Program-made: the position numbers and the translations under genes | Notes under the pieces: generated by a model | Told to the model about the DNA's origin: nothing | Databases searched by the model: none | Seen by the model: the letters and a program-made list of their open reading frames with translations, nothing else | Assembly: GCA_964464245.1 (NCBI GenBank) | Contig: CAYXFH010000145.1 | Coordinates: 1-54,891, forward strand | Length of the DNA stretch: 54,891 bases | Direction: 5' to 3' | DNA from: an uncultured bacterium | GTDB lineage: Bacteria; Caldisericota; JANLFM01 | Shown: piece by piece, positions 1 to 12,308 of the stretch | Layout of the letters: every line of letters starts with the position of its first letter | How positions within the stretch are numbered: the first letter of the stretch is position 1

Positions 1-422
1 ATCTTGTCTTCCAATCCAAAACCGAACATTTCGGAGAGTTGCTGGATGATTGCCTTGGCCCCCTTATGATCGATGATGAATTTGGTCTTTTCCATGAAAA
101 GGTAGATGTTCTCTAAGATGCTAAGATCAGGCACCAGCTTAAAGAATTGCGGGACCATGCCGATTCCCAATTGAAGTGAATCGCGGGGCGATCTGATTTC
201 ATAAACCTTCCCATTGACCAGAATCTCTCCCGCATCTTTTTGATAGAGCCCATAGATGATGTTCATCAAGGTGGTCTTGCCTGCTCCGTTTTCTCCGAGC
301 AACGTATGAATCTCACCCTTGCGGAAAGAAAGCGAAACACAATCCAATGCTTGTACAGATCCGAAGCGCTTAGAGATTCCTTTTACTTCCAGAACGATCT
401 CGGGTGGTCTGATTTCTTCCAT
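1..422 (-). CDS. ABC transporter ATP-binding protein, N-terminal part (gene runs off the left edge)
   Basis: My own reverse translation from ATG at 422..420 gives MEEIRPPEIVLEVKGISKRFGSVQALDCVSLSFRKGEIHTLLGENGAGKTTLMNIIYGLYQKDAGEILVNG..., with Walker A GENGAGKTT. It is a clear paralogue of the N-terminus of the 17084..18613 ATPase. It is absent from the ORF track because no stop lies in the window. The + ORF 240..512 is its antisense shadow. Confidence 0.85.
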   Translation of the reverse strand, partial: MEEIRPPEIVLEVKGISKRFGSVQALDCVSLSFRKGEIHTLLGENGAGKTTLMNIIYGLYQKDAGEILVNGKVYEIRSPRDSLQLGIGMVPQFFKLVPDLSILENIYLFMEKTKFIIDHKGAKAIIQQLSEMFGFGLEDK

Positions 423-427
423 CCCTG

Positions 428-2731
428 CTACCTCTTCTCTGGGTGTAGAAAAAAGTATACTTCCTCGGCCTTGATTGGAAGCTTGTGTGGACGGAAACCA
501 ACTGCATCATAGATGGCATTGGCAATGGCCGCCGCCGTTGGGTTCAGCCCGATCTCGCCGACGCCCTTGGCGCCGTAGGGTCCCTCTGGATCAAGAGTCT
601 CGACCAGAAAAATATCTTCATCGGGGATATCCATTGCAGTAGGAAGCATCACTCGGTCCAAGCAATCAGTGACGACCTTGCCCGACATCGGATCAACTTT
701 CAGTTCCTCAGTCAGAGCATAGCCCATCCCTTGAGCCAAAGCTCCCTCGATTTGTCCTTCGACAGCAATCGGATTGAGGGCTTTACCCACATCTTGAGCT
801 ACAACCAAGCGCTTCACCCGGATCTCGCCGGTTTGCGTGTCCACGACAACCTCTGCTCCTTGGGCAGAGAAAGCATAGGCAGCAGAGACATTGGCATACC
901 CTTTGGGAGTCAGACGTACAGTTGGAGGGACATATTGGTACGCTGAAGTAAGAATGTGTCCAACAGTGCGAGGGGAATGGAAAACGGAATCTCCATAGGA
1001 AAGGGTCTTGCTTGGATCTTCGCGACAGAGAATCATGCCATCCTGCAGAAATAGAGTCTTCATGGGAACCTCTAATACGACTGCCGCCGATTCCAGCAGG
1101 AAAGTCTTCAATTGAGCGGCAGCCATTTTGGCGGCGTTCCCATCCTCGAAGGCGACGCGAGAGGCAAAGCTCCCAAGGGATTGTGGCGTCGTCTCAGTGT
1201 CCATGCTGATCAGGCGGATAGACTCCATGGGGAGCTGCAACTCCTCTGCAACAATCTGGGTGATGACCGTGTTGGCCCAAGTGCCGGTATCTCCGGACCC
1301 CTTGTACACAGAAACCCGGCCATCGATGAACATCTTCAGCTCGATCGCTGAAAACTCTCCGTCCGGGAAAACATTGCTGCCTGAGACGTGGATAGCTGTG
1401 GCCAAACCCTTTCCTTTCCTGTACCGGCCATCTTTCGGTTCTTTCCGGCGCTCCTTCCAGTTGATCGCCTGGCTCACCTTTTCCAGGCACTCCTCTAGTC
1501 CACAGGTAGTGATTGCCCAGCCGCAGGGCGTGAGATCCCCGGAACGGTTGGCATTCTTAATGCGCAGTTCCAGCGGGTCTATCCCCAAAGCCTCCGCAAT
1601 CTCGTCAAGTTGGGACTCGATAGCGAATATCACTTGAGGAGCTCCGAAACCCCGAAAAGGACCTCCAGCTTGCTTGTTGGTGTAGACGATATCGGCATTG
1701 AATCGGAAGTGAGGGATGCGGTAGCTGGAAGCCGCAGTTCCGGCGGCATAACCGGTAATAGCGGGACCGTAGTGGCAGTAAGCCCCCTTGTCAACAATTA
1801 CCTGCATCTCCCGCGCCATCAATGTCCCATCCAGCTTTACTCCGGTCTTGATGCGCATAAAGAAGGGATGGCGGATGCGGGTAGTGGTCATCTCCTCCTC
1901 GCGGGTGAAGGTAATGCGCACGGGGCGGCCGCAACGAATGGCCAGGAGAGCGGTGACACCTTCATCCTCACAGTACTTGGAACGGGAGCCGAAACCCCCG
2001 CCACAATGGACTTCCATCACTTGGACGGAAGAAATGGGCAAGTCACAAACATGCGCGACTTCCTTTCGCACGAAGTAAGGGCTCTGTGTGCCCGTCCATA
2101 TCTGGAGAACGCCGTCAGGATTCATCCAAGCTGCGCTAGATCGAGGCTCCATGTTGCAGTGGGACACAGCCTGAGTAGAGAACTGGTCCTCAAAAACTCG
2201 GTCAGATTGAGCGAATCCCTCATCCACGTTTCCGAAATCTCGCTTCATATTCAATACCAGGTTGTTGATCCGATCCTCGTGGATCAGGGGAGCTCCATCC
2301 AGCAATGCTTCGCAAGGATCGAAGACGGCAGGCAGAGGTTCATATTCAACTTCGATCAAGGCCAATGCTTCCTGCGCAATCTCCTCCGTCTCCGCCGCTA
2401 CAGCAACTACTGAGTCTCCTACGTAGCGAACCTTGTCGATTGCCAGGGGATACATGTCCGAGATCTGGGCAACGTATTTGATACCTGGTGTATCCGCTCC
2501 TGTCATAACAGTTACTACACCCGGCAATTCCAAAGCTCGAGAGGCATTGATGCTTCGAATACGCGCGTGAGCATGGGGGCTTCTTAGAATTTTCCCAAAG
2601 AGCATTCCGGGCAATCGCAAATCATCGGTGAAAGGAGCTTCTCCGGTGACTTTCGCCCACGCGTAGATCTCTGGAATTCGCTGCCCAACGTATTTCAGTG
2701 GTTCCATTCTAGCCTCCATCGAATTGATCAT
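428..2731 (-). CDS. Xanthine dehydrogenase/aldehyde oxidase family molybdopterin-binding large subunit (CoxL/XdhA-like)
   Basis: 767 aa. The N-terminus (YVGQRIPEIYAWAKVTGEAPFTDDLRLPGMLFGKILRSPHAHARIRSI) is typical of Mo-hydroxylase large subunits. The start overlaps the stop of the upstream gene (TAATG). Confidence 0.9.
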   Translation of the reverse strand: MINSMEARMEPLKYVGQRIPEIYAWAKVTGEAPFTDDLRLPGMLFGKILRSPHAHARIRSINASRALELPGVVTVMTGADTPGIKYVAQISDMYPLAIDKVRYVGDSVVAVAAETEEIAQEALALIEVEYEPLPAVFDPCEALLDGAPLIHEDRINNLVLNMKRDFGNVDEGFAQSDRVFEDQFSTQAVSHCNMEPRSSAAWMNPDGVLQIWTGTQSPYFVRKEVAHVCDLPISSVQVMEVHCGGGFGSRSKYCEDEGVTALLAIRCGRPVRITFTREEEMTTTRIRHPFFMRIKTGVKLDGTLMAREMQVIVDKGAYCHYGPAITGYAAGTAASSYRIPHFRFNADIVYTNKQAGGPFRGFGAPQVIFAIESQLDEIAEALGIDPLELRIKNANRSGDLTPCGWAITTCGLEECLEKVSQAINWKERRKEPKDGRYRKGKGLATAIHVSGSNVFPDGEFSAIELKMFIDGRVSVYKGSGDTGTWANTVITQIVAEELQLPMESIRLISMDTETTPQSLGSFASRVAFEDGNAAKMAAAQLKTFLLESAAVVLEVPMKTLFLQDGMILCREDPSKTLSYGDSVFHSPRTVGHILTSAYQYVPPTVRLTPKGYANVSAAYAFSAQGAEVVVDTQTGEIRVKRLVVAQDVGKALNPIAVEGQIEGALAQGMGYALTEELKVDPMSGKVVTDCLDRVMLPTAMDIPDEDIFLVETLDPEGPYGAKGVGEIGLNPTAAAIANAIYDAVGFRPHKLPIKAEEVYFFLHPEKR

Positions 2732-3444
2732 TATTCCATGCTGCCGCAGGCTGTTCTGTTAACTTGCTCGCCATAAGGGTCGCGGTGAGCTCGCTCGATC
2801 AGCTCATCGGAACGCATCCTGCTCGAATCGTAGCGTTCCTGGTGAGTGAACGAATCGGCCGGTCGGCGAGGCCTAGGCTCTCTGTCCTCATTGGGGTAAC
2901 CCAAGGGCAAGATGCAGACGATGCGTAGCGGATCCGGAATCTCCAGAAGAGATTTTACTTCCTCCGGGAAGAAGTTGGTGAAAACGGCAGTGCCCAGTCC
3001 CAGTGCAGTAACAGCCAGCAGCATATTCTGGATGGCCATGCTTACGCTGCCCCAGAAGGCAAATTGCTCAATGTTCTCCTCGACCTGGTGCATCATGCTG
3101 ACGTACCGGAAACGAGGATCCCCGATCACCACCAAGTGGACAGGGGCTTCCATCAAATATCCACCGGTAAACGTACGGAGGAAGGGGAAATCTCTTAGTT
3201 CCTTGATTCGCTTGATACAACGCTGCACACTTAATTGAATTTTTTCCTTGGTGTCCAGATCGCGCACCACCAGGAATTCCCAGGGTTGAGAATTGGCACT
3301 GGATGGCGCCCATCGACCAGCTTCGATGATCTTGGCGATACTCTCATCCGATACTGGGTCTGGCCTGAATGACCGGATTGAGCGCCGTTTCTGCATCAGC
3401 GTGAGTAAAGATTCGATTCCTATGCACGAATTTCCCTGGCTCAC
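2731..3444 (-). CDS. Nitroreductase family (FMN-dependent) protein
   Basis: 237 aa. It contains RRSIRSFRPDPVSDESIAKIIEAGRWAPSSANSQPWEFLVVRD, the classic nitroreductase N-terminal signature. The GTG start overlaps the aminotransferase stop (GTGA). Confidence 0.85.
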   Translation of the reverse strand: MSQGNSCIGIESLLTLMQKRRSIRSFRPDPVSDESIAKIIEAGRWAPSSANSQPWEFLVVRDLDTKEKIQLSVQRCIKRIKELRDFPFLRTFTGGYLMEAPVHLVVIGDPRFRYVSMMHQVEENIEQFAFWGSVSMAIQNMLLAVTALGLGTAVFTNFFPEEVKSLLEIPDPLRIVCILPLGYPNEDREPRPRRPADSFTHQERYDSSRMRSDELIERAHRDPYGEQVNRTACGSME

Positions 3445-4757
3445 GCGGCGCCTTCAGCTATCGCAAGAGCCTTTTCGAAGACTTCCAGCGTCCGCTCCGC
3501 TTCCTTTCGCGTAAAGCATAAGGGCGGCTGGAACCGGATGCGGTTGTAGTAGAGACCACCCCGGCCGATCAGCATCTTCTCTTTCAACGCTTCGTCGAGG
3601 ATTCGGGTCATAACCATATTGCTAGCAGGTGTCTTCTTTTCCTTGTCGGTGGTGATTTCAGCTCCAATGAAAAGACCTTTCCCTTCTACATCATCGAGGA
3701 AGGGATGATGTTTGCTCAACTCTACCAGACCAGCCTTGAGAAATTCTCCTACTTGTGCGGAGTTCTTCACCAGTCCTTCTTCTTCGGTGACCTCAATCGC
3801 TGCCAGAGCTGCCCGGCAACTGACCGGGTTCCCACCGAAAGTGGCGAAATCAGGCCCAGGGAAAGTATCGGCAATCTCGGTCTTGGCTACTACAGCGCCG
3901 ATTGGAAGTCCACCACCCAATCCTTTTGCTAACGTGACTACATCTGGCTCCACCCCATAATGCTCGATGCCGAACATCATTCCAGTGCGACCGAAACCAG
4001 TTTGCACTTCATCCACAATTAATAGGATCTGGTTCTCTTCGAGGATTGGCTTGAGCATCTTGAAATAGTCCGGCGGGGCTTCCACAATGCCACCGATGCC
4101 TTGGATAGGTTCCACAACAACAGCCGCCGTCCGGCTGCTGGTCTGAGTCTTCAAGGCGATTTTAAGATAGTTGGCACAGGCATAGCCGCACTCACTGTAA
4201 TGGTGATGACCCAAGGGACAACGGTAACAGTGGTACATTGGCAAATGCAGTGTTCCAGACATGAATGGCCCCAGGCCAGAGCGCCAAGCTCCCAGGCCGG
4301 TGATGCTCATGGTAAAGCCACCCCGCCCATAGAAGCCGTTTTGCAAGCCGAATATTTCAAACTTCTTGGTAGCGATACGGGCTAGGCTGATGGCATGTTC
4401 GTTCGCTTCGGTTCCCGAGTTGCAGAAGAAACTCTTCGCACGACCCTCGCCCATCGGGACGATCTCGGCCAGCTTCTTTGCCAGCAAGGGCATTGGAACA
4501 GTGCGATAAAGGGTAGAGAGATGGGTCAGTTGCCCTACTTGATCTTGTACTGCTGCCACCATTCTAGGATGCGCATGGCCGATGTTAATCACGGAAACCC
4601 CACTAAAGCAATCGAGGTATTCCTGCCCTTCGATATCCCAGAGCGTGGAACCCTTCCCCATCACGAATACTTTATCGTTCCAAGCCTCTACGCTCTTCAT
4701 CACATATTGATCCTGCATTTGGATGACTTCTGCTGCAGTCAGCCTTTCCTCAATCAT
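3441..4757 (-). CDS. Class-III (omega) aminotransferase, PLP-dependent
   Basis: The ORF track gives 3441..4865. I prefer ATG at 4757 (MIEERL...) because it is preceded by GGAGGAAGTG and avoids overlap with the upstream gene ending at 4795. Motifs seen are GHAHPRMVAAV, FFCNSGTEANE, LLIVDEVQTGFGRTG and the TLAKGLGGG lysine region. Confidence 0.88.
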   Translation of the reverse strand: MIEERLTAAEVIQMQDQYVMKSVEAWNDKVFVMGKGSTLWDIEGQEYLDCFSGVSVINIGHAHPRMVAAVQDQVGQLTHLSTLYRTVPMPLLAKKLAEIVPMGEGRAKSFFCNSGTEANEHAISLARIATKKFEIFGLQNGFYGRGGFTMSITGLGAWRSGLGPFMSGTLHLPMYHCYRCPLGHHHYSECGYACANYLKIALKTQTSSRTAAVVVEPIQGIGGIVEAPPDYFKMLKPILEENQILLIVDEVQTGFGRTGMMFGIEHYGVEPDVVTLAKGLGGGLPIGAVVAKTEIADTFPGPDFATFGGNPVSCRAALAAIEVTEEEGLVKNSAQVGEFLKAGLVELSKHHPFLDDVEGKGLFIGAEITTDKEKKTPASNMVMTRILDEALKEKMLIGRGGLYYNRIRFQPPLCFTRKEAERTLEVFEKALAIAEGAA

Positions 4758-4794: not shown

Positions 4795-6132
4795 TTACCT
4801 TGTCTTCCTGGCTTGAATGACCTTATGAGCAGCCCGTGTGGCTTCCTCAATGACCTGGTTTTCATCGACAGTCAGCAATTTCCGGCCTTCCATCAGGATC
4901 TTGCCATCTACGATCGTGGTATCCACGTTTTCACCGTGAGCCACATAGACTAGATGAGGAAGCACGTTTGAGTTGCTTCCATGGAAGACAGGCGTCAAAG
5001 CGGGGGTCCAGGTATCAACCAAGATCACGTCCGCTTTTTTTCCTACTTCCAGGGATCCAATTTGCTTATCGAGCCCCAGCGCCCGTGCGCCGTTGATCGT
5101 TGCCATTTCCAGGATTTGCCAAGAGGGGAGAAGGCTTGCATCGGTGTGAATGGCTTTCTGGAAAAGGGAGGCGTATTTCATGACTTCGAACATATCGTTG
5201 TTATTGTTGCAAGGAGCGTCGTCTGTGCCCAGGCCAACGTTGATACCGGCCTTCAAGAAGTCAATGGTCCGAGCAATCCCGTTCCCCAATTTGGCGTTGG
5301 AAACAGGGTTGTGGGAGATATGGGCGCCCGTCTTAGCTATCAGCTCTATTTCCGGATCGGATAGCCAAACACAATGGGCGGCCACCACATCCGGCCCAAG
5401 AAGACCTAAATCATATACGAACTCCACGGGAGGCTTTCCGTATTTCTCTTTACACAACTGTACCTCGCCCTTGGATTCGTTAAGGTGGACATGAACGCCG
5501 ACTCCATATTTGTCAGCCAGGGAACGGCACTTCTTGATATATTCCGCAGAACAAACAGGAATCCATTCAATGCCGAAAACAACCAGAATCCGTCCCCCAG
5601 CCGTGTTATTCCGTTCCAAGAAAGCCTTCTCGTTGTCTTCCAAGGTCTCTTGGCCCGGGATCAAATCGGCGCCTTCGCTGGAAAGCACGGCGCGGATACC
5701 GGTCTTCTCCGCCGCATCGGCCAAGGAAGGGAGCTTGATGTACATATCATTGACTGTTGTCGTTCCGCCCTTAATGACTTCTGAGTAGGCCAACATGGCG
5801 GTTTTGTAGGCATCATCAGGAGTCATCGCAGCCAGCATGGGGTAATAAATCGTATCGATCCATTCTTCCAAGCCCAGATGCTCGCCAACTCCACGTGAAA
5901 AATTATCCGCATGAAAGTGAAGATTGACGAGTCCCGGCATTATTATTTTATGAGTCGCATCGATTTCCTTCTTGCCGCTGTATTGGCTTCGAAGGACTTT
6001 CGAATCTCCCACGTCGGTGATTCTGCCTTGGTCAATCGCTACGGCTCCATCTTCAATAATGAGCCGTTCTGGATTCATCGTTACAACAATCCCGCTATGG
6101 ATCAAGAGCTCAATCGTTCTTGATTCCGGCAT
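4795..6132 (-). CDS. Metal-dependent amidohydrolase (cytosine/guanine deaminase, SsnA/TRZ-ATZ-like subgroup)
   Basis: It has an HxH metal motif (PGLVNLHFHADNF), later HVHLNES, and the C-terminal LGTDDAPCNNNNDMF and GSLEVGKKADVILVD typical of the family. I chose the start at 6132 (MPESR) because it is preceded by GGAGGG. Confidence 0.85.
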   Translation of the reverse strand: MPESRTIELLIHSGIVVTMNPERLIIEDGAVAIDQGRITDVGDSKVLRSQYSGKKEIDATHKIIMPGLVNLHFHADNFSRGVGEHLGLEEWIDTIYYPMLAAMTPDDAYKTAMLAYSEVIKGGTTTVNDMYIKLPSLADAAEKTGIRAVLSSEGADLIPGQETLEDNEKAFLERNNTAGGRILVVFGIEWIPVCSAEYIKKCRSLADKYGVGVHVHLNESKGEVQLCKEKYGKPPVEFVYDLGLLGPDVVAAHCVWLSDPEIELIAKTGAHISHNPVSNAKLGNGIARTIDFLKAGINVGLGTDDAPCNNNNDMFEVMKYASLFQKAIHTDASLLPSWQILEMATINGARALGLDKQIGSLEVGKKADVILVDTWTPALTPVFHGSNSNVLPHLVYVAHGENVDTTIVDGKILMEGRKLLTVDENQVIEEATRAAHKVIQARKTR

Positions 6133-6709: not shown

Positions 6710-7584
6710 GCCAGGCTCCCTTCCAAGCGACTGATCGCTAGCTTTATAGTCTCTCTTGCAAGCGCTTCTGCCATTTCCTTGCGGTAAAGTCCGGATCCAC
6801 GCAACACTGAATCTCTTGGCTGAACTTCCTTCTGAACGACCGCTGCGCAGGTAGATATCGTTTCGTCATTCAGTAGTTTTCCGATTAAATAAGTTTCCGC
6901 CTGACGCGCTCGAAATGGCATCGTCGCAACGGGACCAACAGCGATTCGAGCATCAGCGCAATACCCTGCGGATGAAGCAATCCACACTGCGCAATTCAGT
7001 TGGGGGAGCGCTAACGCTTTCCGTATCGCCATTCTGCGAAATGCCGATGCCTCCCCCTGGTGTTGTGCCTCGAACTCGATGCACGTGATCATTTCACGGG
7101 ATGCGTCTATTGCCGATCTTCCGACACCGACATACGAATTACTCAGCATAAGGTCACGCTCCCCCTGGAAGCCAAGGATCTTAAGTCTGGCATCCAGTGC
7201 AACCAAAGCGATTGCTCCGTCCGCTGCCGGCTGGGCTGAGACGATATTGCCTGCCAACGTAGCGCGGTTTCGAATCTGAGGCCCGCCAACCCAGGAACAG
7301 GCTTCCCATAGAGCTGTTGCATGATGCTTTAACAATCGCGATTCCTCGACCTGAGTCATCGTTACCAGCGGACCCAACTGAATGCGTTCTCCATCTGAAT
7401 GAATCCGATCCAATCCCGGAATTCGACTTACATCAACCAGCGCCTCAAAACTGTTGGCATGATCACGAATCTCCAAGATTAAATCGGTTCCGCCTGCAAT
7501 CAGACGAGCCTTTCCATCTTCGATCAGAAGCATATCGATAGCCTCTGATGAGCTGGTTGGAAAGAGATGATCTCGAATTCTCAC
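6706..7584 (-). CDS. FAD-binding medium subunit of the molybdenum hydroxylase (CoxM-like)
   Basis: 292 aa with a GTG start. It shows ARLIAGGTDLILEIRD and NRATLAGNI motifs of the FAD_binding_5 / CO dehydrogenase flavoprotein family. Confidence 0.88.
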   Translation of the reverse strand: MRIRDHLFPTSSSEAIDMLLIEDGKARLIAGGTDLILEIRDHANSFEALVDVSRIPGLDRIHSDGERIQLGPLVTMTQVEESRLLKHHATALWEACSWVGGPQIRNRATLAGNIVSAQPAADGAIALVALDARLKILGFQGERDLMLSNSYVGVGRSAIDASREMITCIEFEAQHQGEASAFRRMAIRKALALPQLNCAVWIASSAGYCADARIAVGPVATMPFRARQAETYLIGKLLNDETISTCAAVVQKEVQPRDSVLRGSGLYRKEMAEALARETIKLAISRLEGSLA

Positions 7585-7590
7585 GGCGTG

Positions 7591-8361
7591 TTATTCCTCG
7601 AGAAAGGCAACCGCTCGCACAAAGCCAGCGCTCCCATGGTAAAACTTGATAGGAAATCCGTAAAACTTAAAACCAAATGGTGGCAATTGGTCTAAGTTAG
7701 CGAGTTTCTCGTAGTGAGCATATTCCTTACGAGTTCCTACCAAATGGCATGGCCAAAGATATTTCGGATCGCGACCATGGTCTTTATATTGCTTGGACCA
7801 GTGGTTGTATCCTATGTCAAAGCTCCACGAATCAGTTCCTACCGTCTTGATTCCTTGGTCAAGAACCCACTCCAAGGCTTCTGCGGAAAGATGGCCGCCA
7901 TGATCGGCGTAATGTGGTTGGCCCCAAAGCTTATCGTTGCCGGTCATGGCGAGGAAGATATCCAGCGGCTTCAGCGTGTAGCCGATCTTGCTCAAACGAT
8001 CCTTCAGCTCACCTGCAGAGAGCTGGCAACCATCCGCTACATCCCGAATATCGACCACTACGCCATCCCCAAAGCACCATTCCAACGGCCACTCTTCGAT
8101 GGTCTTCGGTTTCATCCCAGCGCAGAGAGGACCCATGTGCCAAGGAGAATCGAGATGTGTTCCCGCATGGGTTGTCATCTCAAGGAAATCATCCGCCCAT
8201 GCCTTGCCGGGGAACGGCCAATCTTGAGGATCGATGCCGTAGTATTTTTGGTCTTCTTTAGCGCCATTCTCATGCGGCAGATTGGTGATTTTTACATTCA
8301 TCAAGGGGCTGGGGTCGGTAGATGTTACCATCGAGAGATCGATTATTCTCGTCAAAATCAT
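7591..8361 (-). CDS. Putative cyclase family protein (kynurenine formamidase/isatin hydrolase-like)
   Basis: 256 aa with HAGTHLDSPWH (the HxGTHxDxPxH metal motif of the cyclase family). The exact start is uncertain. The SD GGAG sits only 1 nt from the ATG, and a TTG two codons downstream has better spacing. Confidence 0.8.
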   Translation of the reverse strand: MILTRIIDLSMVTSTDPSPLMNVKITNLPHENGAKEDQKYYGIDPQDWPFPGKAWADDFLEMTTHAGTHLDSPWHMGPLCAGMKPKTIEEWPLEWCFGDGVVVDIRDVADGCQLSAGELKDRLSKIGYTLKPLDIFLAMTGNDKLWGQPHYADHGGHLSAEALEWVLDQGIKTVGTDSWSFDIGYNHWSKQYKDHGRDPKYLWPCHLVGTRKEYAHYEKLANLDQLPPFGFKFYGFPIKFYHGSAGFVRAVAFLEE

Positions 8362-8378: not shown

Positions 8379-9629
8379 TTACTGATTAGTTAAAACAGTG
8401 TACGCATTCGTGAAGCAATCTAAGGGAGGTCGAAAAAGTCCAGCCCCGATTTGCCCAATTCCTGGAAGGCGATGTGCGATCCCCGTGTTGATCACTGGGG
8501 TAATTTGGAGTTCGACGACTTTACGCACATCGATTCCCAATGGAGTGCCACGGTAGTCCAAGAAAGGGATTCTAAAACGAGGGTGTTCGGCAGCAGTGAT
8601 CCTGTACATCTCTTCTGTTGCAGTGAGAGCATCTTGAACTGTTCCTCCAACGAAACTGGTAATCGCTGGAGCAGCAGCCATAGCGACCCCCCCTAGCCCA
8701 GTTGCTTCCGATAGATACGAGTCTCCCATTACCGGATTGGCATCCTGCTCTCCATAACCTTGGAAATATCTCCCTTCGGCCAGCGGAGCTGGTGTCGTGA
8801 ACCAGTGAGAACCCAATCCGGCAACCTGGATTGCGAATTGAAAGCCATTCGCCGCCATACATGAAACAATTGTACTTCCCCGAATGTCTCTCACGTTGTC
8901 CATCGTCGCCTTGCTTGCGGCCATCGAGAGATTTAGGAAAAATTGGTCGTTACGATCAATAAAAAAAAGAGCCTCGGCGATCTCTTCTTTGGAGAAAGAT
9001 GATCTCACTAACCAAGGCGCAATCCGGCGAAACAGCAATGAAGTCGCTGATTTATTGCGATTGTGGCACTCATCTCCTCGTTGCAGCGCTCTTTCAATAA
9101 TAGCGGAGATATCTACCTCTCCTCCTAACGCAATTGCTTCTTCCAGCAAAGGGGCAAAATAGCGTTCAATCCAACGCAGTCTCTCGATAACATGGCTTCC
9201 ATTGGCGCCAAAACGCAAGGTTTGTCCAAGGCCTTCATTGATGGTAATAAAAACTCTATTAGAAAAAGGCCTGTTCTCGACAATGAAAACGGGCATGGCG
9301 GGACTTACGATACCAGCCATCGGACCCAACATGCCGTATGCATGTGCCGACGCGAACTCCACTTCCCCTCTTTCTGCCATCGCCTGGGCTTCCTCCAGAG
9401 TCTCTGCCCATCGCTGATAGACAATGGCGCCGATTGCGGCATTGCGCATTGCTCCGCACATTTCGTTCCAAGGCAGAGGAGAACCTGCATGAAGCAAACG
9501 CCGCCCCTCGCGTAGCCAATGAACTTCTCGACCAGCCGTACTCATTCCGACCCAGAATACATGGGCAGAGCCAATCCGCCGCAATACCTCCTCATTCGCT
9601 TTTTCGAAAGGGGAAGAGTGCGCTGTCAT
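8379..9629 (-). CDS. DUF1116 family protein (YlbE/AllG-like)
   Basis: 416 aa. LLHAGSPLPWNEMCGAMRNAAIGAIVY, GPMAGIVSPAMPVFIVEN, NEGLGQTLRFGANGSHVIERLRWI and GDECHNRN match my recollection of E. coli YlbE-type DUF1116 proteins. Confidence 0.65.
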   Translation of the reverse strand: MTAHSSPFEKANEEVLRRIGSAHVFWVGMSTAGREVHWLREGRRLLHAGSPLPWNEMCGAMRNAAIGAIVYQRWAETLEEAQAMAERGEVEFASAHAYGMLGPMAGIVSPAMPVFIVENRPFSNRVFITINEGLGQTLRFGANGSHVIERLRWIERYFAPLLEEAIALGGEVDISAIIERALQRGDECHNRNKSATSLLFRRIAPWLVRSSFSKEEIAEALFFIDRNDQFFLNLSMAASKATMDNVRDIRGSTIVSCMAANGFQFAIQVAGLGSHWFTTPAPLAEGRYFQGYGEQDANPVMGDSYLSEATGLGGVAMAAAPAITSFVGGTVQDALTATEEMYRITAAEHPRFRIPFLDYRGTPLGIDVRKVVELQITPVINTGIAHRLPGIGQIGAGLFRPPLDCFTNAYTVLTNQ

Positions 9630-9631: not shown

Positions 9632-10024
9632 CTACCCTAGCGCTGCGATCCCACTAATTTCGATCATCAATTCCTCCATCACCAAGTGACTAATCTCGAC
9701 AAGCGTGCTGGCAGGAGGATTGTCTCGAAAATACGGATCACGGACCTTTGCAAAAATCGCGCGGTTTCTAATATCGGTAAGAAAAACATTGATGCTGATC
9801 AAGTCTTCAGGACTCCCACCTACAGATTTCAACATGGCCATCAAATTATCCAATGCTTGCTTTGCCTGAGCTTCAAAATCTCCCTTCCCCACTACCTTGC
9901 CGTCGCTATCCAAAGAGATTTGTCCAGAGATGCAAACTATCCCCCCACGGCGCACACATTGAGACCATGTCCCATCGCTTGCAGCCACTTCATTCGTTCC
10001 CAGGACTCTAGTTGCTTTTTCCAT
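9632..10024 (-). CDS. RidA/YjgF family reactive-intermediate (enamine/imine) deaminase
   Basis: ISGQISLDSDGKVVGKGDFEAQAKQALDNLMAMLKSVGGSPEDLISINVFLTD is typical RidA. The ORF track starts at 10060. I use the in-frame ATG at 10024 (MEKATRV), but the start is uncertain. Confidence 0.82.
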   Translation of the reverse strand: MEKATRVLGTNEVAASDGTWSQCVRRGGIVCISGQISLDSDGKVVGKGDFEAQAKQALDNLMAMLKSVGGSPEDLISINVFLTDIRNRAIFAKVRDPYFRDNPPASTLVEISHLVMEELMIEISGIAALG

Positions 10025-10700
10025 CCGCGATCGCATCCTTTCCATTGGCCATTCGCACAAAATCCTTAATAACGCTCTCCAGATGATCTTGTGCCGCTTT
10101 TTCTGATCGCACTGGATCGTGGCTCTTGAAGCTATCGATAATTGCTTGGTGCTCCTTAACCGAGTGAGAATAGCGATCAGGCGCCCTTATCGTATAAAAT
10201 CGGCACAAATATACTAATGATAATTGCTTTTCCAAGATATTGATCAATGTTGGGGAACCAGAACAGCGAACTAACATCGCATGTATCTTTCGGTCGTAAT
10301 CGAAAAATTCCTCTTGGCCTACTGGTTGTTGGCGTAAACTCATCTCTTGCTGAAGCGATTCCAATTCACCGATCTCCTCAGGGGTAATCCTTCTTGCCGC
10401 CTCGCCGGCCGCTAAACCCTCCATGGCAGCTTCTACACGGAGTAAATCCACAATCTCTTCACGGCGAAACGAAATAACAAACATGCCAACATGAGGTTGA
10501 TTGTCGATCAATCCTTCCTGCTCGAGGACTAATAAGGCCTCCCGAATCGGAGTTCTGCTTACTCCATATTTGGCGCTGATCTCTTCTTCGATAAGTTTCT
10601 GACCAGGTAAGTATTCCCGATTGAGTATAGCTTCACGTATGACTTGAACCAATTCCGTCCTCATCGTTCTTCTGAGATCATTAACCGTTGGAATCTGCAT
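10008..10700 (-). CDS. GntR family transcriptional regulator (FadR/FCD-type C-terminal domain)
   Basis: 230 aa. It has an N-terminal winged HTH (LPGQKLIEEEISAKYGVSRTPIREALLVLEQEGLI) and a helical C-terminal effector domain. Confidence 0.9.
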   Translation of the reverse strand: MQIPTVNDLRRTMRTELVQVIREAILNREYLPGQKLIEEEISAKYGVSRTPIREALLVLEQEGLIDNQPHVGMFVISFRREEIVDLLRVEAAMEGLAAGEAARRITPEEIGELESLQQEMSLRQQPVGQEEFFDYDRKIHAMLVRCSGSPTLINILEKQLSLVYLCRFYTIRAPDRYSHSVKEHQAIIDSFKSHDPVRSEKAAQDHLESVIKDFVRMANGKDAIADGKSN

Positions 10701-10722
10701 CTGGACCCTTTTTCATCTCCAA

Positions 10723-10762
10723 AGCATCTGGAGGTCGAGATCTCTCGGCCTCCAGATGCTTA
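10723..10762 (-). terminator. 13-bp stem hairpin between the thiaminase-like gene and the GntR gene (attenuator or partial terminator)
   Basis: AAGCATCTGGAGG (10723..10735) pairs perfectly with CCTCCAGATGCTT (10750..10762). No strong U-tract follows, so it may only attenuate read-through. Confidence 0.45.
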
Positions 10763-10771
10763 TTGAAATCA

Positions 10772-12271
10772 TTAGTTCGTCGGCAAGAGCTCGTCCAACT
10801 TCGCTCTCAATCCTGGCGCCCAATCCCAGTCGGCCGGAGGCGGGTAGTAGCGGCCAAGCTGCATCACGGGAAGCATTTGTATATAGAGCGGAGAAGTTTT
10901 CAGTAAATTCGCGTCTTGATAGACTGACATTCGAGCAGGGGAAAGGTAACGAACTGGGCTGGTCGGTGGGGCTACCTGGCGGACGTTCTCGCTCGTGCTG
11001 GTGACAAACTGGATAAAGGTCAGCGCATCAGCCCTCTTCTGGCCGGTCAATGATTTATCGAGACAGAAGCTATCCGTGTAACCAGTTGAAGCGGACTTGC
11101 CGGTATCGGATTGAATGAACGGCATGATGGCGATGTCATCCAAGCTGATGGTCGTGTCCCACAAACCTTGAGCTTGCTCGATGATGTTCGCCATGTAACC
11201 CAAGGCCTCAGAGTAATAAACATAAGCTCGGCCGTTGCCATAGACGAACTTCCGCATCAGATCGTCAGTGATCTTATCGTTAATCGGGTTAGCTCCGTTG
11301 CCTGGATCCATCATGGCGATGATGCGCTTCTCAATGTCGATGGCCTGCTGATTGATGTTGTCTTTGTTTACGTAACTGTAGAATTTCACGGGGTCGTTTG
11401 GAAAGAGATCCATCAATGTGTCTTTATACATTTCCTCAGTTCGGTAGCTCCCCAGCATATCGCACAGCAAGCCCTGTCCAAGGGGGTGGTTCTTCCCGCC
11501 GATCACCTTCTCAAGCTCGGAGAACGTCTTTGTATTGGCAAGTTCCGTATCGTTTTTATTGTAGAAAAGGAAATTCGTACAAGTCCAATGAGGGATTCCC
11601 CACCACTTGCCATCAATGACAGCCACATCTTTGACGATTTGCAAGAAGTCATCCGGATTCGGAACTTCGCTATCGAGCAAGGGCTGCAACTTGTCTTTAG
11701 CGATAAACTCACGCAAATAACCCTCGTCCAATTCCCACACGTCTGCCTTTGCTGTAAAAAGGCCGGATGGGTCGCTGTAGTAATCAGGTAAGTTGATAAT
11801 TTCAAGGTCGATTTCGGGGTAGGCTTTCTCGAAATCCCTCTCCATTGTCGTCATGTATTCCTCTAGGTTGGGAATCCAGTTGTAGATGACTGCAGAGAGG
11901 GGTCTCCTGGCTGCGGTCCCGGTTGGCGTCGCAGGAATATCAGCCCCAGGCGCATAGAAATAGACGGCATCGGTGCTCCCGTCCTCCTTGTTAGACCATG
12001 TCGCGGATCCGCCGAATAACTCCACCGCCCAGCGGAATGGCACATAGGTTAACCCATCAATGAGCTTGGCGCCTTCTGTCTGTACAGGGCCTTTATCGGT
12101 TTCCCATTGAGTGGAGCCGATCCCATTGTCGAAGGGAATCTGCACCCATGAAGCGTCGCGAATCGGGGAAACATACTCTATTGGATGCATAGTTGATCCG
12201 AGAGCCAAACTACTGCCGGCAAGGAGCAGGACGAGAAGACAAACTACTCCATTGACCCAGAACCTCTTCAT
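10772..12271 (-). CDS. Secreted thiaminase-I-like (thiamine pyridinylase family, periplasmic-binding-protein fold) protein with an N-terminal copper-amine-oxidase-N-like stalk domain
   Basis: 499 aa with a signal peptide (MKRFWVNGVVCLLVLLLAGSSLALG). A stalk-type segment follows (LIDGLTYVPFRWAVELFGGSATW). The remainder has AVIYNWIPN...YPEIDLEI...YYSDP, GIPHWTCTNFLFYNKND, GRAYVYYSEALGYM and RYLSPARMSVYQ. These parallel my recollection of Paenibacillus thiaminolyticus thiaminase I (AIYPYVPD, LCTNLLFYRKGD with the nucleophilic Cys, GRAFIGYSESMM, YLLPARHQVYE). A plain solute-binding protein is the fallback call. Confidence 0.6.
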   Translation of the reverse strand: MKRFWVNGVVCLLVLLLAGSSLALGSTMHPIEYVSPIRDASWVQIPFDNGIGSTQWETDKGPVQTEGAKLIDGLTYVPFRWAVELFGGSATWSNKEDGSTDAVYFYAPGADIPATPTGTAARRPLSAVIYNWIPNLEEYMTTMERDFEKAYPEIDLEIINLPDYYSDPSGLFTAKADVWELDEGYLREFIAKDKLQPLLDSEVPNPDDFLQIVKDVAVIDGKWWGIPHWTCTNFLFYNKNDTELANTKTFSELEKVIGGKNHPLGQGLLCDMLGSYRTEEMYKDTLMDLFPNDPVKFYSYVNKDNINQQAIDIEKRIIAMMDPGNGANPINDKITDDLMRKFVYGNGRAYVYYSEALGYMANIIEQAQGLWDTTISLDDIAIMPFIQSDTGKSASTGYTDSFCLDKSLTGQKRADALTFIQFVTSTSENVRQVAPPTSPVRYLSPARMSVYQDANLLKTSPLYIQMLPVMQLGRYYPPPADWDWAPGLRAKLDELLPTN

Positions 12272-12292
12272 TTCTTTTCCTCCTTAAGCGGG

Positions 12293-12308
12293 GTAATGTA
12301 TACATTAC
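12293..12308. promoter_or_regulatory. Perfect 16-bp palindrome GTAATGTATACATTAC, candidate GntR-type operator
   Basis: It lies 22-37 nt upstream of the start codon at 12271, just beyond the AAGGAGGA ribosome-binding site. The GT..AC dyad is the generic GntR-family operator architecture. Confidence 0.4.

What the first reader, a model, noticed from the sequence alone, without database searches (positions are those of the whole stretch)
1..12308. Candidate uncharacterised N-heterocycle catabolic island headed by a thiaminase-I-like gene and a GntR regulator
Twelve co-directional genes run with almost no intergenic space. In order they are:
- thiaminase-I-like secreted protein
- GntR regulator
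- RidA
- DUF1116 protein
- cyclase/formamidase-like protein
- Mo-hydroxylase FAD subunit
- Mo-hydroxylase 2Fe-2S subunit
- amidohydrolase
- class-III aminotransferase
- nitroreductase
- Mo-hydroxylase large subunit
- ABC ATPase

Several pairs are translationally coupled (ATGA, TAATG or GTGA overlaps).

From established enzymology, each family fits one step of aromatic N-heterocycle breakdown. The Mo-hydroxylase hydroxylates the ring. The amidohydrolase deaminates it or opens it. The cyclase family acts as a formamidase or amidase. The aminotransferase removes an amine. RidA quenches enamine/imine intermediates, and the nitroreductase reduces a reactive product.

I do not recognise this exact combination as any characterised purine, pyrimidine (Rut or reductive), nicotinate or allantoin cluster. 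Linkage to a thiaminase-I-like gene raises the inference that the substrate is the thiamine pyrimidine moiety or a related aminopyrimidine.
Basis: partly seen in the sequence, partly recalled or inferred. Interest (0 to 1): 0.72.

Follow-up and report, generated by a model that had tools for sequence, protein, structure and literature searches.

The report
Thiaminase-linked anaerobic aminopyrimidine breakdown operon
This is a real, tightly packed operon, conserved in at least two bacterial phyla, that couples a secreted thiamine-cleaving-type enzyme to oxygen-independent ring-degrading enzymes, making it a candidate first gene set for breaking down the pyrimidine half of vitamin B1, though no function has been shown.

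Summary
Twelve co-directional minus-strand genes with the stated families lie at 1-12308, with gaps of -17 to 79 nt. The cluster runs off the window's left edge into a Bmp-type ABC transporter.

- **Conservation:** the same order (thiaminase-I-like, GntR, Rid-like, DUF1116/AllG, cyclase, Mo-hydroxylase FAD and FeS subunits, cog0402 deaminase, class-III aminotransferase, nitroreductase, Mo large subunit, ABC) recurs in six lineages, including Coprothermobacterota and Spirochaetes.
- **Thiaminase-like protein:** it keeps both catalytic residues of thiaminase I and has a signal peptide.
- **Regulation:** a 14-bp palindrome upstream of it recurs in relatives. In one relative it also precedes the GntR operon.
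- **Thiamine link:** a 56% homologue elsewhere sits behind a TPP riboswitch next to TenA. Another relative has two TenA genes beside the cluster.
- **Corrections:** the "RidA" lacks the essential Arg (invariant PAST), DUF1116 has no AllF/AllH partners here, and most claimed start/stop overlaps come from longest-ORF starts.
- **Status:** no protein reaches an equivalog cutoff and no paper describes the cluster.

Best reading: a GntR-controlled operon for uptake and anaerobic catabolism of an aminopyrimidine released from thiamine or an analogue. The N-heterocycle assignment is fairly secure. The substrate is inferred.

The parts
12294..12307 (.). Perfect 14-bp palindrome TAATGTATACATTA, a candidate operator for the GntR/FCD regulator. 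It lies 22 nt upstream of the start codon of the thiaminase-like gene.
   Evidence: It occurs once in the window. That count alone is not significant, because 34 of 100 shuffles give at least one match at up to 3 mismatches. The same motif sits at the same place in L001 and L089. In L002 it precedes both the thiaminase-like gene and the GntR gene. The TTGACT and TATACT hexamers just upstream are only 7 nt apart, so no sigma-70 promoter can be assigned.
10772..12271 (-). Secreted thiaminase-I-like protein (499 aa): a signal peptide, an N-terminal stalk of about 85 aa that resembles the N-terminal domain of copper amine oxidase (my reading), and a thiaminase-I domain.
   Evidence: Pfam PF22141 and PF13416 match. 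TIGR04541 scores 137 bits against a cutoff of 175. PDB 4KYS and 2THI align at E 5e-25 and 2e-19, with C231 on Cys113 and E355 on Glu241. C231 is invariant and E355 at least 90% conserved in 25 homologues. The N-terminus reads MKRFWVNGVVCLLVLLLAGSSLALGS. The stalk region is shared with proteins carrying PF07833.
10722..10761 (-). Strong RNA hairpin between the thiaminase-like gene and GntR, followed by only UUU. It may be a partial terminator or a transcript-stabilising element.
   Evidence: The fold is -33.5 kcal/mol, z = -6.4, and 0 of 200 shuffles fold as well. Analogous hairpins lie at the same junction in L001, L002 and L089.
10008..10700 (-). GntR-family regulator with an FCD effector domain (FadR subfamily).
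   Evidence: Pfam PF00392 and PF07729 match. No NCBIfam equivalog cutoff is reached. It is conserved at the same position in L001, L002, L003, L089, L090 and L099.
9632..10024 (-). Rid-family (YjgF/L-PSP) protein of a non-RidA subtype. In this subfamily it always sits directly upstream of the solo DUF1116 gene.
   Evidence: PF01042 matches. TIGR00004 scores 77.8 bits against a cutoff of 106. The RidA Arg aligns to Ser (PPAST against PARV). PAST is invariant in 9 orthologues, including one from an archaeon.
8379..9584 (-). DUF1116/AllG-family protein without AllF or AllH partners; biochemical role unknown.
   Evidence: PF06545 matches at E 4e-83. PDB 3CLQ, an uncharacterised protein, matches at E 2.5e-104. 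The AlphaFold2 model (pLDDT 86.5) matches only 3CLQ in the PDB fold search. tblastn finds no AllF or AllH homologue in the window.
7591..8355 (-). Cyclase-family (kynurenine formamidase / isatin hydrolase type) metal-dependent amidohydrolase. It is one of the best-conserved proteins of the cluster.
   Evidence: PF04199 matches. Isatin hydrolase 5NNB matches at E 2e-6. The HxGTHxDxPxH motif is present as HAGTHLDSPWH. Identity is 82-98% in L001, L002, L003, L087, L089 and L090.
6706..7584 (-). Mo-hydroxylase FAD subunit (XdhB-like).
   Evidence: PF00941 and PF03450 match. The best NCBIfam hit is XdhB at 206 bits against a cutoff of 310.
6212..6700 (-). Mo-hydroxylase 2x[2Fe-2S] subunit.
   Evidence: PF01799 and PF00111 match. 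No equivalog cutoff is reached.
4795..6132 (-). cog0402-type amidohydrolase, probably a deaminase acting on an exocyclic amino group of a heterocycle.
   Evidence: PF01979 matches at E 8e-76. The best NCBIfam hits are N-ethylammeline chlorohydrolase and 5'-deoxyadenosine deaminase, both below cutoff. PDB 4F0R, an MTA/SAH deaminase, matches at E 8e-67. The HxH, HxxE (VHLNES) and GTDD motifs are present.
3441..4757 (-). Class-III (omega-amine) aminotransferase.
   Evidence: PF00202 matches at E 1e-100. The closest solved structures are GABA aminotransferases. No equivalog cutoff is reached.
2731..3396 (-). Nitroreductase-superfamily flavoprotein.
   Evidence: PF00881 matches. The best NCBIfam hit is BluB at 97.6 bits against a cutoff of 150. 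PDB hits are nitroreductases, NADH oxidase and BluB.
428..2707 (-). Mo-hydroxylase molybdopterin-binding large subunit.
   Evidence: PF01315, PF02738 and PF20256 match. The best NCBIfam hits are 4-hydroxybenzoyl-CoA reductase alpha (636 bits, cutoff 995) and XdhA (585 bits, cutoff 916). PDB 1RM6 matches at E 1e-132. A GVGE motif (my reading: the catalytic Glu) and an FRGFG motif are present.
1..422 (-). 5' part of a double-domain ABC ATPase, cut by the window edge. It is the first gene of a BPD_transp_2/Bmp-type uptake system.
   Evidence: PF00005 matches. L098, the same sequence, continues with a 516-aa ATPase and two permeases. L099 adds an M20 hydrolase and a tandem Bmp binding protein.

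Best explanation
This is a substrate-inducible operon, repressed by its own GntR/FCD regulator through the palindrome at 12294-12307. It lets an anaerobe harvest and degrade an amino-substituted pyrimidine.

**Proposed sequence of events. Only the protein families and motifs are shown; every step is inferred.**
1. The secreted thiaminase-I-like enzyme uses its conserved Cys/Glu pair to cleave thiamine, or an analogue carrying a (4-aminopyrimidin-5-yl)methyl leaving group. This frees a pyrimidine adduct outside the cell.
2. The Bmp-type ABC transporter encoded at the operon's 3' end imports the pyrimidine.
3. In relatives, an M20 deacylase encoded among the transporter genes may deformylate formylaminopyrimidine.
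4. The class-III aminotransferase converts the 5-aminomethyl group to an aldehyde.
5. The Mo-hydroxylase, which takes its oxygen from water and needs no O2, oxidises that aldehyde and/or hydroxylates ring C6. Some relatives carry an extra tungsten-type aldehyde:ferredoxin oxidoreductase that could take over the aldehyde step.
6. The cog0402 amidohydrolase removes the 4-amino group.
7. The nitroreductase-family flavoprotein reduces the activated ring or a product of it.
8. The cyclase-family metallo-amidohydrolase opens a cyclic amide.
9. The Rid-like/DUF1116 pair processes the ring-opened product by chemistry not yet known.

The Rid-like/DUF1116/cyclase/Mo-hydroxylase core is a general module for N-heterocycle breakdown. 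In this cluster it has been joined to thiaminase-specific feeder enzymes.
For: **Families and operon structure.**
- Every family assignment is confirmed.
- Spacing is tight and there is no excess of internal terminators.

**Synteny.**
- The full gene order is kept in six lineages whose DUF1116 proteins are 61-89% identical to the window's. They include Coprothermobacterota MAGs and a Spirochaetes MAG.
- The flanking genes differ between lineages.
- Further co-occurrence follows from matching contig lengths: P0122/P0005, P0124/P0010, P0128/P0040 and P0132/P0038/P0160.

**Thiaminase chemistry is plausible.**
- C231 aligns with Cys113 and E355 with Glu241. The Cys is invariant and the Glu nearly invariant.
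- A signal peptide is present.

**Co-regulation.**
- The palindrome TAATGTATACATTA or a near copy sits upstream of the thiaminase-like gene in the window, L001, L002 and L089.
- In L002 it also sits upstream of the GntR operon.

**Independent links of this thiaminase subfamily to thiamine.**
- L088: a TPP riboswitch (60.2 bits, gathering score 54.3) lies directly upstream, with TenA downstream.
- L090: two TenA genes abut the cluster.

**Catabolic rather than salvage regulation.** No TPP riboswitch occurs in the window or in five syntenic loci.

**Active-site motifs are intact.**
- The deaminase has HxH, HxxE and GTDD.
- The cyclase has HxGTHxDxPxH.

**Aldehyde intermediate.** An aldehyde:ferredoxin oxidoreductase is inserted in the operon in L087 and L003.

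**Oxygen independence.** All the enzyme families present work without O2, and no oxygenase is present. This fits the anaerobic relatives named by the sources.
Against: - No enzyme reaches an equivalog cutoff, and no activity or expression data exist.
- The core (Rid-like, DUF1116, cyclase, Mo-hydroxylase) also occurs without a thiaminase.
  - In an Oscillospiraceae genome (L005) it sits beside PucR, adenine deaminase and an SSF transporter.
  - In an archaeon (L006) it sits beside several amidohydrolases.
  - L003 has the GntR-led cluster but no thiaminase gene in the 9 kb shown upstream.
  - The ring chemistry could therefore be of purine type.
- Thiamine is scarce in nature, so a catabolic operon of roughly 16 genes dedicated to it is energetically surprising (my own reasoning).
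- The true substrate of this divergent thiaminase subfamily is untested. It is about 30% identical to characterised enzymes and scores below the TIGR04541 cutoff.
- The strong hairpin after the thiaminase gene might insulate it transcriptionally from the rest of the operon.
- The best NCBIfam hits of the transporter are "putative B6 ABC transporter" models, far below cutoff.
Confidence: 0.45

Rival explanations
1. The operon degrades a purine or another common nucleobase-type heterocycle, such as an adenine- or guanine-like compound. The thiaminase-I-like protein is then functionally separate, or it acts on a substrate other than thiamine.
For: - The Rid-like/DUF1116/cyclase/Mo-hydroxylase core sits with PucR, adenine deaminase and a transporter in L005.
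- It sits with amidohydrolases and a cytidine-deaminase-like gene in L006.
- A wider DUF1116 family is linked to a cyclase in 45 of the 89 loci and to Mo-hydroxylase subunits in 34-37. Among the AllF-type loci, about 19 also have a xanthine/uracil permease.
- The closest solved relatives of the deaminase act on the adenine ring.
- The transporter is of the Bmp/PnrA type, which is known for nucleosides (the substrate class is from my own knowledge).
Against: - The thiaminase-like gene travels with the cluster in six lineages, in different flanks and in two orientations.
- It shares the operator-like palindrome.
- No purine-specific enzyme is present, such as uricase, allantoinase or a PucR regulator.
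- The Xdh-type equivalog cutoffs are not met.
- The class-III aminotransferase and the aldehyde oxidoreductase insertions have no obvious role in purine breakdown.
Confidence: 0.25
2. The cluster serves thiamine salvage or detoxification of antivitamins rather than catabolism. It would reshape damaged or analogue pyrimidines into usable HMP.
For: Homologues of the thiaminase-like protein occur in clear salvage contexts, with a TPP riboswitch, TenA and a permease in L088. TenA genes abut the cluster in L090. An M20 deacylase lies among the transporter genes in L099. Its family may be that of YlmB, the formylaminopyrimidine deformylase; that link is from memory and was not verified.
Against: - The window and five syntenic loci have no TPP riboswitch and no ThiD, ThiE or TenA.
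- A cog0402 deaminase and a ring-hydroxylating Mo enzyme would destroy the 4-aminopyrimidine that salvage needs.
- Control by a GntR regulator and a palindrome is typical of catabolic operons (my own knowledge).
Confidence: 0.1
3. The operon degrades vitamin B6 vitamers. The aminotransferase would act on pyridoxamine and the Mo-hydroxylase would act as a pyridoxal oxidase, with uptake by a B6-type Bmp transporter.
For: The best NCBIfam hits for the ATPase and the Bmp binding proteins are the "putative B6 ABC transporter" models. The enzyme families could fit in principle (my own knowledge).
Against: Those hits are far below cutoff: 123 bits against 670, and 80 and 164 bits against 400. The conserved thiaminase-I catalytic residues and the TenA/TPP links point to thiamine. 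B6 has no exocyclic ring amino group for a cog0402 deaminase to remove.
Confidence: 0.07

Closest known systems
Thiaminase I (thiamine pyridinylase, EC 2.5.1.2): Paenibacillus thiaminolyticus enzyme (PDB 2THI) and Clostridium botulinum BcmE (PDB 4KYS)
   Same: The domain is the same (PF22141, a periplasmic-binding-protein fold). The catalytic Cys113 and Glu241 are conserved, and the protein is secreted.
   Different: Identity is only about 30%, and the TIGR04541 equivalog score is below cutoff (137 against 175). The window protein has an extra N-terminal stalk domain. It is encoded in, and apparently co-regulated with, a catabolic operon rather than a bacimethrin or salvage cluster.
Oxamic transcarbamylase AllFGH of E. 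coli (PMC11326118)
   Same: It contains an AllG/DUF1116 subunit (PF06545) and lies in an anaerobic N-heterocycle (purine/allantoin) catabolic context.
   Different: [quoted passage not shown] The window has no AllF or AllH, and no carbamate kinase turned up among the ORFs scanned. A Rid-like protein occupies the adjacent position instead.
Widespread uncharacterised AllH-AllF-AllG-cyclase clusters, with Mo-hydroxylase, thiolase-like/DUF35 genes and a xanthine/uracil permease, in anaerobes (for example Clostridium rhizosphaerae, L041)
   Same: DUF1116 is followed directly by a cyclase-family gene and is linked to a three-subunit Mo-hydroxylase. An unknown 245-aa protein typical of those clusters also follows the window-type cluster in L099.
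   Different: The window type lacks AllF, AllH, the thiolase-like gene and DUF35. It has instead a Rid-like protein, a cog0402 deaminase, an aminotransferase, a nitroreductase, a thiaminase-like gene and a Bmp ABC transporter. Its cyclase is only about 27% identical to the cyclase of those clusters.
Mo-hydroxylase-initiated anaerobic heterocycle catabolism, such as nicotinate fermentation in Eubacterium barkeri and clostridial purine fermentation (my own knowledge)
   Same: Ring hydroxylation by an XDH-family enzyme uses water-derived oxygen. It is followed by reduction and by ring opening with an amidohydrolase, and no oxygenases are involved.
   Different: The downstream enzymes are different, with no enamidase or B12 mutase set. 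The Mo subunits are not equivalogs of Ndh or Xdh.
Rut pyrimidine pathway (RutA-G) and the YlmB/TenA thiamine-pyrimidine salvage pathway (my own knowledge; YlmB is described in PMC10470507)
   Same: A Rid-family protein and a nitroreductase-family protein occur together, as RutC and RutE do. TenA and an M20 deacylase are present in relatives.
   Different: There is no RutA monooxygenase, RutB or RutF. TenA and the M20 protein are absent from the window itself.

Membership tests
Thiaminase I (TIGR04541 / PF22141) | Thiaminase-1 domain recognised above the Pfam gathering score | tested here: met
   PF22141 scores 47.8 bits against a cutoff of 27.
Thiaminase I (TIGR04541 / PF22141) | NCBIfam equivalog score at or above the curated cutoff | tested here: not met
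   TIGR04541 scores 137.3 bits against a cutoff of 175.
Thiaminase I (TIGR04541 / PF22141) | Catalytic nucleophile Cys113 and base Glu241 (2THI numbering) | tested here: met
   C231 and E355 align to them. C231 is invariant and E355 is conserved in at least 90% of 25 homologues.
Thiaminase I (TIGR04541 / PF22141) | Cleaves thiamine by base exchange | not testable with these tools
   This needs an enzyme assay.
Archetypal RidA (enamine/imine deaminase) | YjgF/L-PSP fold | tested here: met
   PF01042 scores 88 bits.
Archetypal RidA (enamine/imine deaminase) | Conserved active-site Arg (Arg105 in the E. coli/Salmonella protein) in the PAR motif | tested here: not met
   Ser replaces the Arg: PPAST against PARV/PARA. 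PAST is invariant in 9 orthologues. TIGR00004 scores 77.8 bits against a cutoff of 106.
Oxamic transcarbamylase AllFGH | AllG (PF06545) subunit | tested here: met
   PF06545 matches at E 4e-83.
Oxamic transcarbamylase AllFGH | AllF (FdrA) and AllH (DUF2877) partners, all three being required for activity | tested here: not met
   The requirement is stated in PMC11326118. tblastn with AllF and AllH from L041 finds nothing in the 54.9-kb window or in L001, L087, L089 and L090.
Xanthine dehydrogenase (XdhABC / PucCDE) | Three-subunit Mo-hydroxylase (Mo, FAD and 2x[2Fe-2S] subunits) | tested here: met
Xanthine dehydrogenase (XdhABC / PucCDE) | Equivalog-level similarity to XdhA/B/C or PucC/D/E | tested here: not met
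   XdhA scores 585 bits against 916, XdhB 206 against 310, and XdhC 175 against 217. The top hit for the large subunit is instead 4-hydroxybenzoyl-CoA reductase alpha, also below its cutoff.
Xanthine dehydrogenase (XdhABC / PucCDE) | Substrate-binding Glu802/Arg880 of purine-specific enzymes | tested here: inconclusive
   By eye, the GGGFGSRS motif puts Ser where XDH has Glu802 (the motif position is from memory). No alignment to XDH was run.
Rut pyrimidine pathway | RutA monooxygenase, RutB amidohydrolase and RutF flavin reductase together with RutC and RutE | tested here: not met
   Only weak, sub-cutoff RutC-like (52 bits against 169) and RutE-like (58 bits against 152) hits were found. No RutA, RutB or RutF family is present in the cluster.
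GntR/FadR-subfamily repressor with a palindromic operator | N-terminal GntR winged helix-turn-helix domain plus C-terminal FCD domain | tested here: met
   PF00392 and PF07729 match.
GntR/FadR-subfamily repressor with a palindromic operator | Binding to a cognate palindrome in its own regulon | tested here: inconclusive
   A conserved TTGTATACAT-type palindrome lies upstream of the regulon genes in four lineages. Binding itself was not tested.

The most novel reading that the evidence does not exclude
This is the first gene set for complete, oxygen-independent mineralisation of the pyrimidine ring of vitamin B1. It would give secreted thiaminase I a physiological role, which has long been unclear, as the harvesting enzyme of a nutrient-acquisition pathway. 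The solo DUF1116 protein, with its Arg-less Rid partner and a cyclase-type hydrolase, would form a previously unknown enzyme system for ring opening or amide processing. That system would be shared with a large family of uncharacterised nucleobase clusters in anaerobic bacteria and archaea.
Probability: 0.3. Interest if true: 0.8.

Novelty: new variant of a known kind. Interest (0 to 1): 0.62.

Why it matters
- **Thiamine turnover.** Thiamine and its fragments are traded and competed for in microbial communities. As far as I could find, no genes are known for breaking down the pyrimidine ring. The natural role of thiaminase I also remains unclear.
- **A testable candidate.** A conserved operon ties a catalytically intact, secreted thiaminase-like enzyme to a transporter, a regulator and ten enzymes. 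This gives a concrete pathway whose parts can each be tested.
- **An unexplored enzyme module.**
  - A solo DUF1116 protein is paired with a Rid-family protein that lacks the canonical Arg, next to a cyclase-type hydrolase and a Mo-hydroxylase.
  - This module recurs in bacteria and archaea.
  - Related AllF-type clusters occur in many anaerobe phyla.
  - Solving one member would annotate many genomes.

Tried and rejected
- **Sequence origin.** A megablast of the region against E. coli genomes found no match. The sequence is not enterobacterial.
- **Exact-match look-up of the longest DUF1116 ORF.** It failed because the called gene starts 15 codons later. The look-up with the 759-aa large subunit worked.
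- **GTDB genome scan with a DUF1116 alignment.**
  - These turned out to be mostly the different AllF-linked cluster type.
  - It therefore did not sample the window-type cluster.
- **Metagenome scan with the thiaminase-like family.** It gave only 8 loci. Two were informative (L090, L091).
- **Structure of DUF1116.** The AlphaFold2 model and PDB fold search gave no structural relative other than 3CLQ, whose function is unknown. No mechanistic lead came from it.
- **Unknown 245-aa protein of L099.** It has no PDB sequence relative and no Pfam match.
- **Riboswitch in the window.** No TPP riboswitch or any other Rfam element lies near the cluster.
- **Promoter.**
  - I first read TTGACT and TATACT as -35 and -10 elements, but they are only 7 nt apart.
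  - The consensus scan reports no promoter there.
  - I withdraw any promoter assignment.
- **TenA remnants.** None were found in the 550-nt non-coding stretch upstream of the thiaminase gene.
- **Literature.** Searches on DUF1116, FdrA/YlbE with xanthine dehydrogenase, clostridial purine-fermentation intermediates, thiaminase I gene clusters and thiamine catabolism found no description of this cluster.
- **Thiaminase-like protein as the transporter's binding protein.**
  - Considered and rejected.
  - The catalytic residues are conserved.
  - The transporter has its own Bmp binding protein in L099.

Full report
**1. What is in the sequence**

Positions 1-12308 carry twelve consecutive genes on the minus strand.

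| Window coordinates | Product |
|---|---|
| 10772-12271 | Thiaminase-1 domain / SBP_bac_8 protein |
| 10008-10700 | GntR + FCD regulator |
| 9632-10024 | Rid (L-PSP) protein |
| 8379-9584 | PF06545 protein (DUF1116, now named AllG) |
| 7591-8355 | Cyclase-family protein |
| 6706-7584 | Mo-hydroxylase FAD subunit |
| 6212-6700 | Mo-hydroxylase 2Fe-2S subunit |
| 4795-6132 | Amidohydro_1 enzyme |
| 3441-4757 | Class-III aminotransferase |
| 2731-3396 | Nitroreductase-family protein |
| 428-2707 | Mo-hydroxylase large subunit |
| 1-422 | Start of a double-domain ABC ATPase |

- The start positions are those called in an identical public record (L098, GCA_037130295.1).
- Most of these starts are preceded by GGAGG-type ribosome-binding sites.
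- With these starts the gaps between genes are -17 to 79 nt.
- Promoter-like and terminator-like sites inside the cluster are no more frequent than in shuffled sequence.

**2. Boundaries and surroundings**

- **Left edge.**
  - The cluster runs off the window.
  - L098 continues with the rest of the ATPase and two BPD_transp_2 permeases.
  - A relative whose large subunit is 79% identical (L099) continues with ATPase, permease, an M20 deacylase, a second permease, a tandem Bmp substrate-binding protein and an alcohol dehydrogenase. An unknown 245-aa protein and a carboxyltransferase follow.
- **Upstream genes.**
  - These are a divergent aldo-keto reductase/ferredoxin gene, a DinB-family gene and a second Bmp-type ABC transporter whose binding protein carries SLH domains.
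  - They are syntenic only in close relatives. In L089/L099 and L087 unrelated genes take their place.
  - They are therefore not part of the conserved unit.
- **Rest of the window.** It holds housekeeping genes: mfd, pth, prs, dnaB, ftsK, RNase J, pnp, ribF, truB, infB and nusA.
- **Base composition.** The cluster has 49-53% G+C against 54-59% for the rest of the window.
- **Mobility.**
  - The changing flanks fit horizontal spread. So does the high identity to a Spirochaetes MAG (cyclase 82%, amidohydrolase 71%).
  - No mobility genes were seen.
- **Taxonomy.** The closest named relatives are Coprothermobacterota MAGs.

**3. Conservation**

- **Gene order.**
  - The order runs from GntR through the Mo large subunit: Rid, DUF1116, cyclase, FAD, FeS, amidohydrolase, aminotransferase, nitroreductase, large subunit.
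  - It is kept in L001, L002 (truncated at the contig end), L089, L090, L099 and L087.
- **Thiaminase-like gene.**
  - It is adjacent in every one of these loci.
  - It is usually first in the operon. In the Spirochaetes locus L087, and apparently in L091, it is divergently oriented.
- **Size of the thiaminase-like family.**
  - It is small: 24 sequence clusters at 55-91% identity among 5.8 billion proteins.
  - Identity then drops to about 33% for canonical thiaminases.
- **Shared contigs.** Several family members share a contig length with close DUF1116 or large-subunit homologues, which implies further co-occurrence.
- **Chance.** The arrangement is therefore not a chance juxtaposition.

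**4. The thiaminase-like protein**

- It aligns over its whole catalytic domain with the solved thiaminases 4KYS and 2THI.
- Its C231 lies on the catalytic Cys113 and its E355 on Glu241.
- C231 is invariant in 25 homologues and E355 is conserved in at least 90% of them.
- It has a typical signal peptide and an N-terminal stalk of about 85 aa. The stalk is shared with other secreted proteins annotated with PF07833.
- It scores below the TIGR04541 equivalog cutoff (137 bits against 175).
- I therefore call it a divergent, probably active, secreted thiaminase-I-type enzyme, not a confirmed thiaminase.

**5. Regulation**

- **Palindrome.**
  - A perfect palindrome, TAATGTATACATTA (12294-12307), lies 22 nt upstream of the thiaminase start codon.
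  - Its single occurrence in the window is not significant on its own.
  - The same motif occupies the same position in L001 and L089.
  - In L002 it precedes both the thiaminase-like gene and the GntR gene.
  - It has the T-GT-AC-A character of FadR-subfamily GntR operators (my own knowledge).
- **Hairpin.**
  - A strong hairpin (-33.5 kcal/mol, z = -6.4) with a weak U-tract follows the thiaminase gene.
  - Relatives have an analogous hairpin.
  - It may set differential expression within the operon.
- **Promoter.** I could not assign one. The TTGACT and TATACT hexamers are only 7 nt apart, and the consensus scan lists nothing there.
- **Riboswitch.** No TPP riboswitch occurs in the window or in five syntenic loci.

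**6. Independent links to thiamine**

- **L088.**
  - A 56%-identical member of the thiaminase-like family sits directly behind a TPP riboswitch (60.2 bits, gathering score 54.3).
  - It is followed by TenA and an amino-acid-type permease.
- **L090.**
  - This locus has the full catabolic cluster.
  - Two TenA-family genes are inserted immediately upstream of the thiaminase-like gene, divergently oriented.
- **L099.**
  - The M20 protein encoded among the transporter genes passes the NCBIfam PRK08596 model (534 bits against a cutoff of 412).
  - From memory, that family includes YlmB, the formylaminopyrimidine deformylase, which is itself an M20 enzyme (PMC10470507).
  - I could not verify this link, so it is only a lead.

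**7. Corrections to the proposed enzyme roles**

- **Rid protein.**
  - It is not an archetypal RidA. The Arg needed for enamine/imine deaminase activity is replaced by Ser.
  - The motif PAST is invariant in nine orthologues, one of them archaeal.
  - The protein always sits directly upstream of the DUF1116 gene, even where the cyclase is absent (L004). This suggests a functional pair.
- **DUF1116.**
  - It belongs to the AllG family, but E. coli oxamic transcarbamylase needs AllF, AllG and AllH together (PMC11326118).
  - The window encodes neither AllF nor AllH.
  - The fold has no solved relative other than the uncharacterised 3CLQ.
- **Amidohydrolase.**
  - It has the HxH, HxxE and GTDD motifs of cog0402 deaminases.
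  - Its closest relatives deaminate adenine-type 4-aminopyrimidine rings.
- **Cyclase.** It has the complete HxGTHxDxPxH metal-binding motif.
- **Mo large subunit.** It is closest to 4-hydroxybenzoyl-CoA reductase alpha and XdhA, and reaches neither cutoff.

**8. The wider family**

- **Window-type core elsewhere.**
  - The Rid-like/DUF1116/cyclase/Mo-hydroxylase core also occurs without a thiaminase.
  - In an Oscillospiraceae genome it sits with PucR, adenine deaminase, an SSF transporter and an Amidohydro_2 enzyme (L005).
  - In an archaeon it sits with several amidohydrolases (L006).
- **A second cluster type.**
  - More distant DUF1116 genes (45-57% identity) in 80 reference genomes from many anaerobe phyla mostly belong to it.
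  - Its layout is AllH-AllF-AllG-cyclase. It often includes a Mo-hydroxylase, a thiolase-like/DUF35 pair, an unknown protein of about 230 aa and a xanthine/uracil permease.
  - The same unknown protein follows the window-type cluster in L099.
- **Meaning.**
  - DUF1116 plus cyclase plus Mo-hydroxylase is a recurrent, uncharacterised module for heterocycle catabolism.
  - The window carries a derived version of it, fitted with a thiaminase, a deaminase, an aminotransferase and a nitroreductase.

**9. Best explanation and its limits**

- **Model.**
  - I read the locus as a GntR-repressed operon.
  - It releases a (4-aminopyrimidin-5-yl)methyl compound outside the cell, imports it and degrades it without oxygen.
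  - The proposed steps are transamination of the aminomethyl group, oxidation of the aldehyde and/or hydroxylation of the ring by the Mo enzyme, and removal of the 4-amino group. Reduction, hydrolytic ring opening and processing by the Rid-like/DUF1116 pair would follow.
  - The aldehyde:ferredoxin oxidoreductase inserted in L087 and L003 supports an aldehyde intermediate.
- **What is shown.** Only the gene families, motifs, synteny and shared motifs are shown. Every reaction is inferred.
- **Confidence.**
  - About 0.8 that this is an N-heterocycle catabolic operon.
  - About 0.45 that the substrate is the thiamine pyrimidine or a close analogue.
- **Main rival (0.25).** Purine-type catabolism, with the thiaminase-like enzyme acting on something else. 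The L005 and L006 contexts and the scarcity of thiamine in nature support this rival.
- **Minor rivals.** Salvage or detoxification (0.10) and vitamin B6 catabolism (0.07).

**10. Novelty**

- I found no paper describing this cluster, or any genes for catabolism of the thiamine pyrimidine. The library does not cover subscription-only journals.
- The logic, a Mo-hydroxylase followed by amidohydrolases under a GntR repressor, is a known kind of system.
- The gene combination, the thiaminase front end and the Rid-like/solo-DUF1116/cyclase triad are new. I rate it a new variant of a known kind, with interest 0.62.

Noticed in passing
L041 5106-17072; also L010, L011, L013, L025, L027, L047, L056, L065, L078 and others: A second, much more widespread uncharacterised cluster type occurs in anaerobes of many phyla. 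Its layout is an unknown protein of about 230 aa, a thiolase-like protein, a DUF35/zf-ChsH2 protein, AllH, an AllF (FdrA-like) protein, AllG (DUF1116), a cyclase, a three-subunit Mo-hydroxylase and a xanthine/uracil permease. AllF is adjacent to DUF1116 in 66 of the 89 loci scored, and the cyclase in 45.
   Followed up: partly
L099 20524-21261, with a carboxyltransferase at 21378 onwards: An unknown 245-aa protein has no Pfam match and no PDB sequence match. It lies downstream of the window-type cluster and is 34-56% identical to the unknown protein of the AllF-type clusters. This suggests a shared downstream step.
   Followed up: partly
window 14717-20325 (minus strand): A second, complete Bmp/PnrA-type ABC transporter (two permeases, a double ATPase and a binding protein) lies upstream of the cluster. 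Its 547-aa binding protein carries three N-terminal SLH cell-wall-anchor domains. It is syntenic in L001, L002 and L090 but not in L087, L089 or L099.
   Followed up: partly
window 12272-12822: A 550-nt stretch without an ORF separates the thiaminase-like gene from the divergent aldo-keto reductase gene. It contains a tandem direct repeat, GAATTGACCGGAGGTC, twice, near 12725-12760. In L090 the equivalent space holds two TenA genes and two unknown genes. No TenA remnant is detectable in the window.
   Followed up: partly
L087 3453-5270 and L003 13438-14850: A tungsten-type aldehyde:ferredoxin oxidoreductase gene is inserted between the FeS-subunit gene and the amidohydrolase gene in L087. A partial copy, 88% identical, follows the FeS-subunit gene at the contig end of L003.
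   Followed up: partly
window 31576-33398 (minus strand): Two tandem Asparaginase_2 (isoaspartyl peptidase / L-asparaginase type) genes, whose longest ORFs overlap, lie next to three tRNA genes at 31253-31465 and 33478-33551.
   Followed up: no
window 52268-53641 (minus strand): A 457-aa ORF combines a CDP-alcohol phosphatidyltransferase domain with a weak match to an F420-0:gamma-glutamyl ligase-like domain, which is an unusual fusion.
   Followed up: no
window 36589-37518 (minus strand) and 35027-36588: A 309-aa ORF has no Pfam match. Just downstream of it on the plus strand lies a stretch of about 1.5 kb with no ORF of 150 aa or more, between dnaB and ftsK.
   Followed up: no
window 1-12000 against 12001-54891: The cluster has lower G+C (0.49-0.53) than the rest of the window (0.54-0.59). 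Together with near-identical gene order in different phyla and different flanks, this fits horizontal acquisition. No integrase or transposase was seen.
   Followed up: partly
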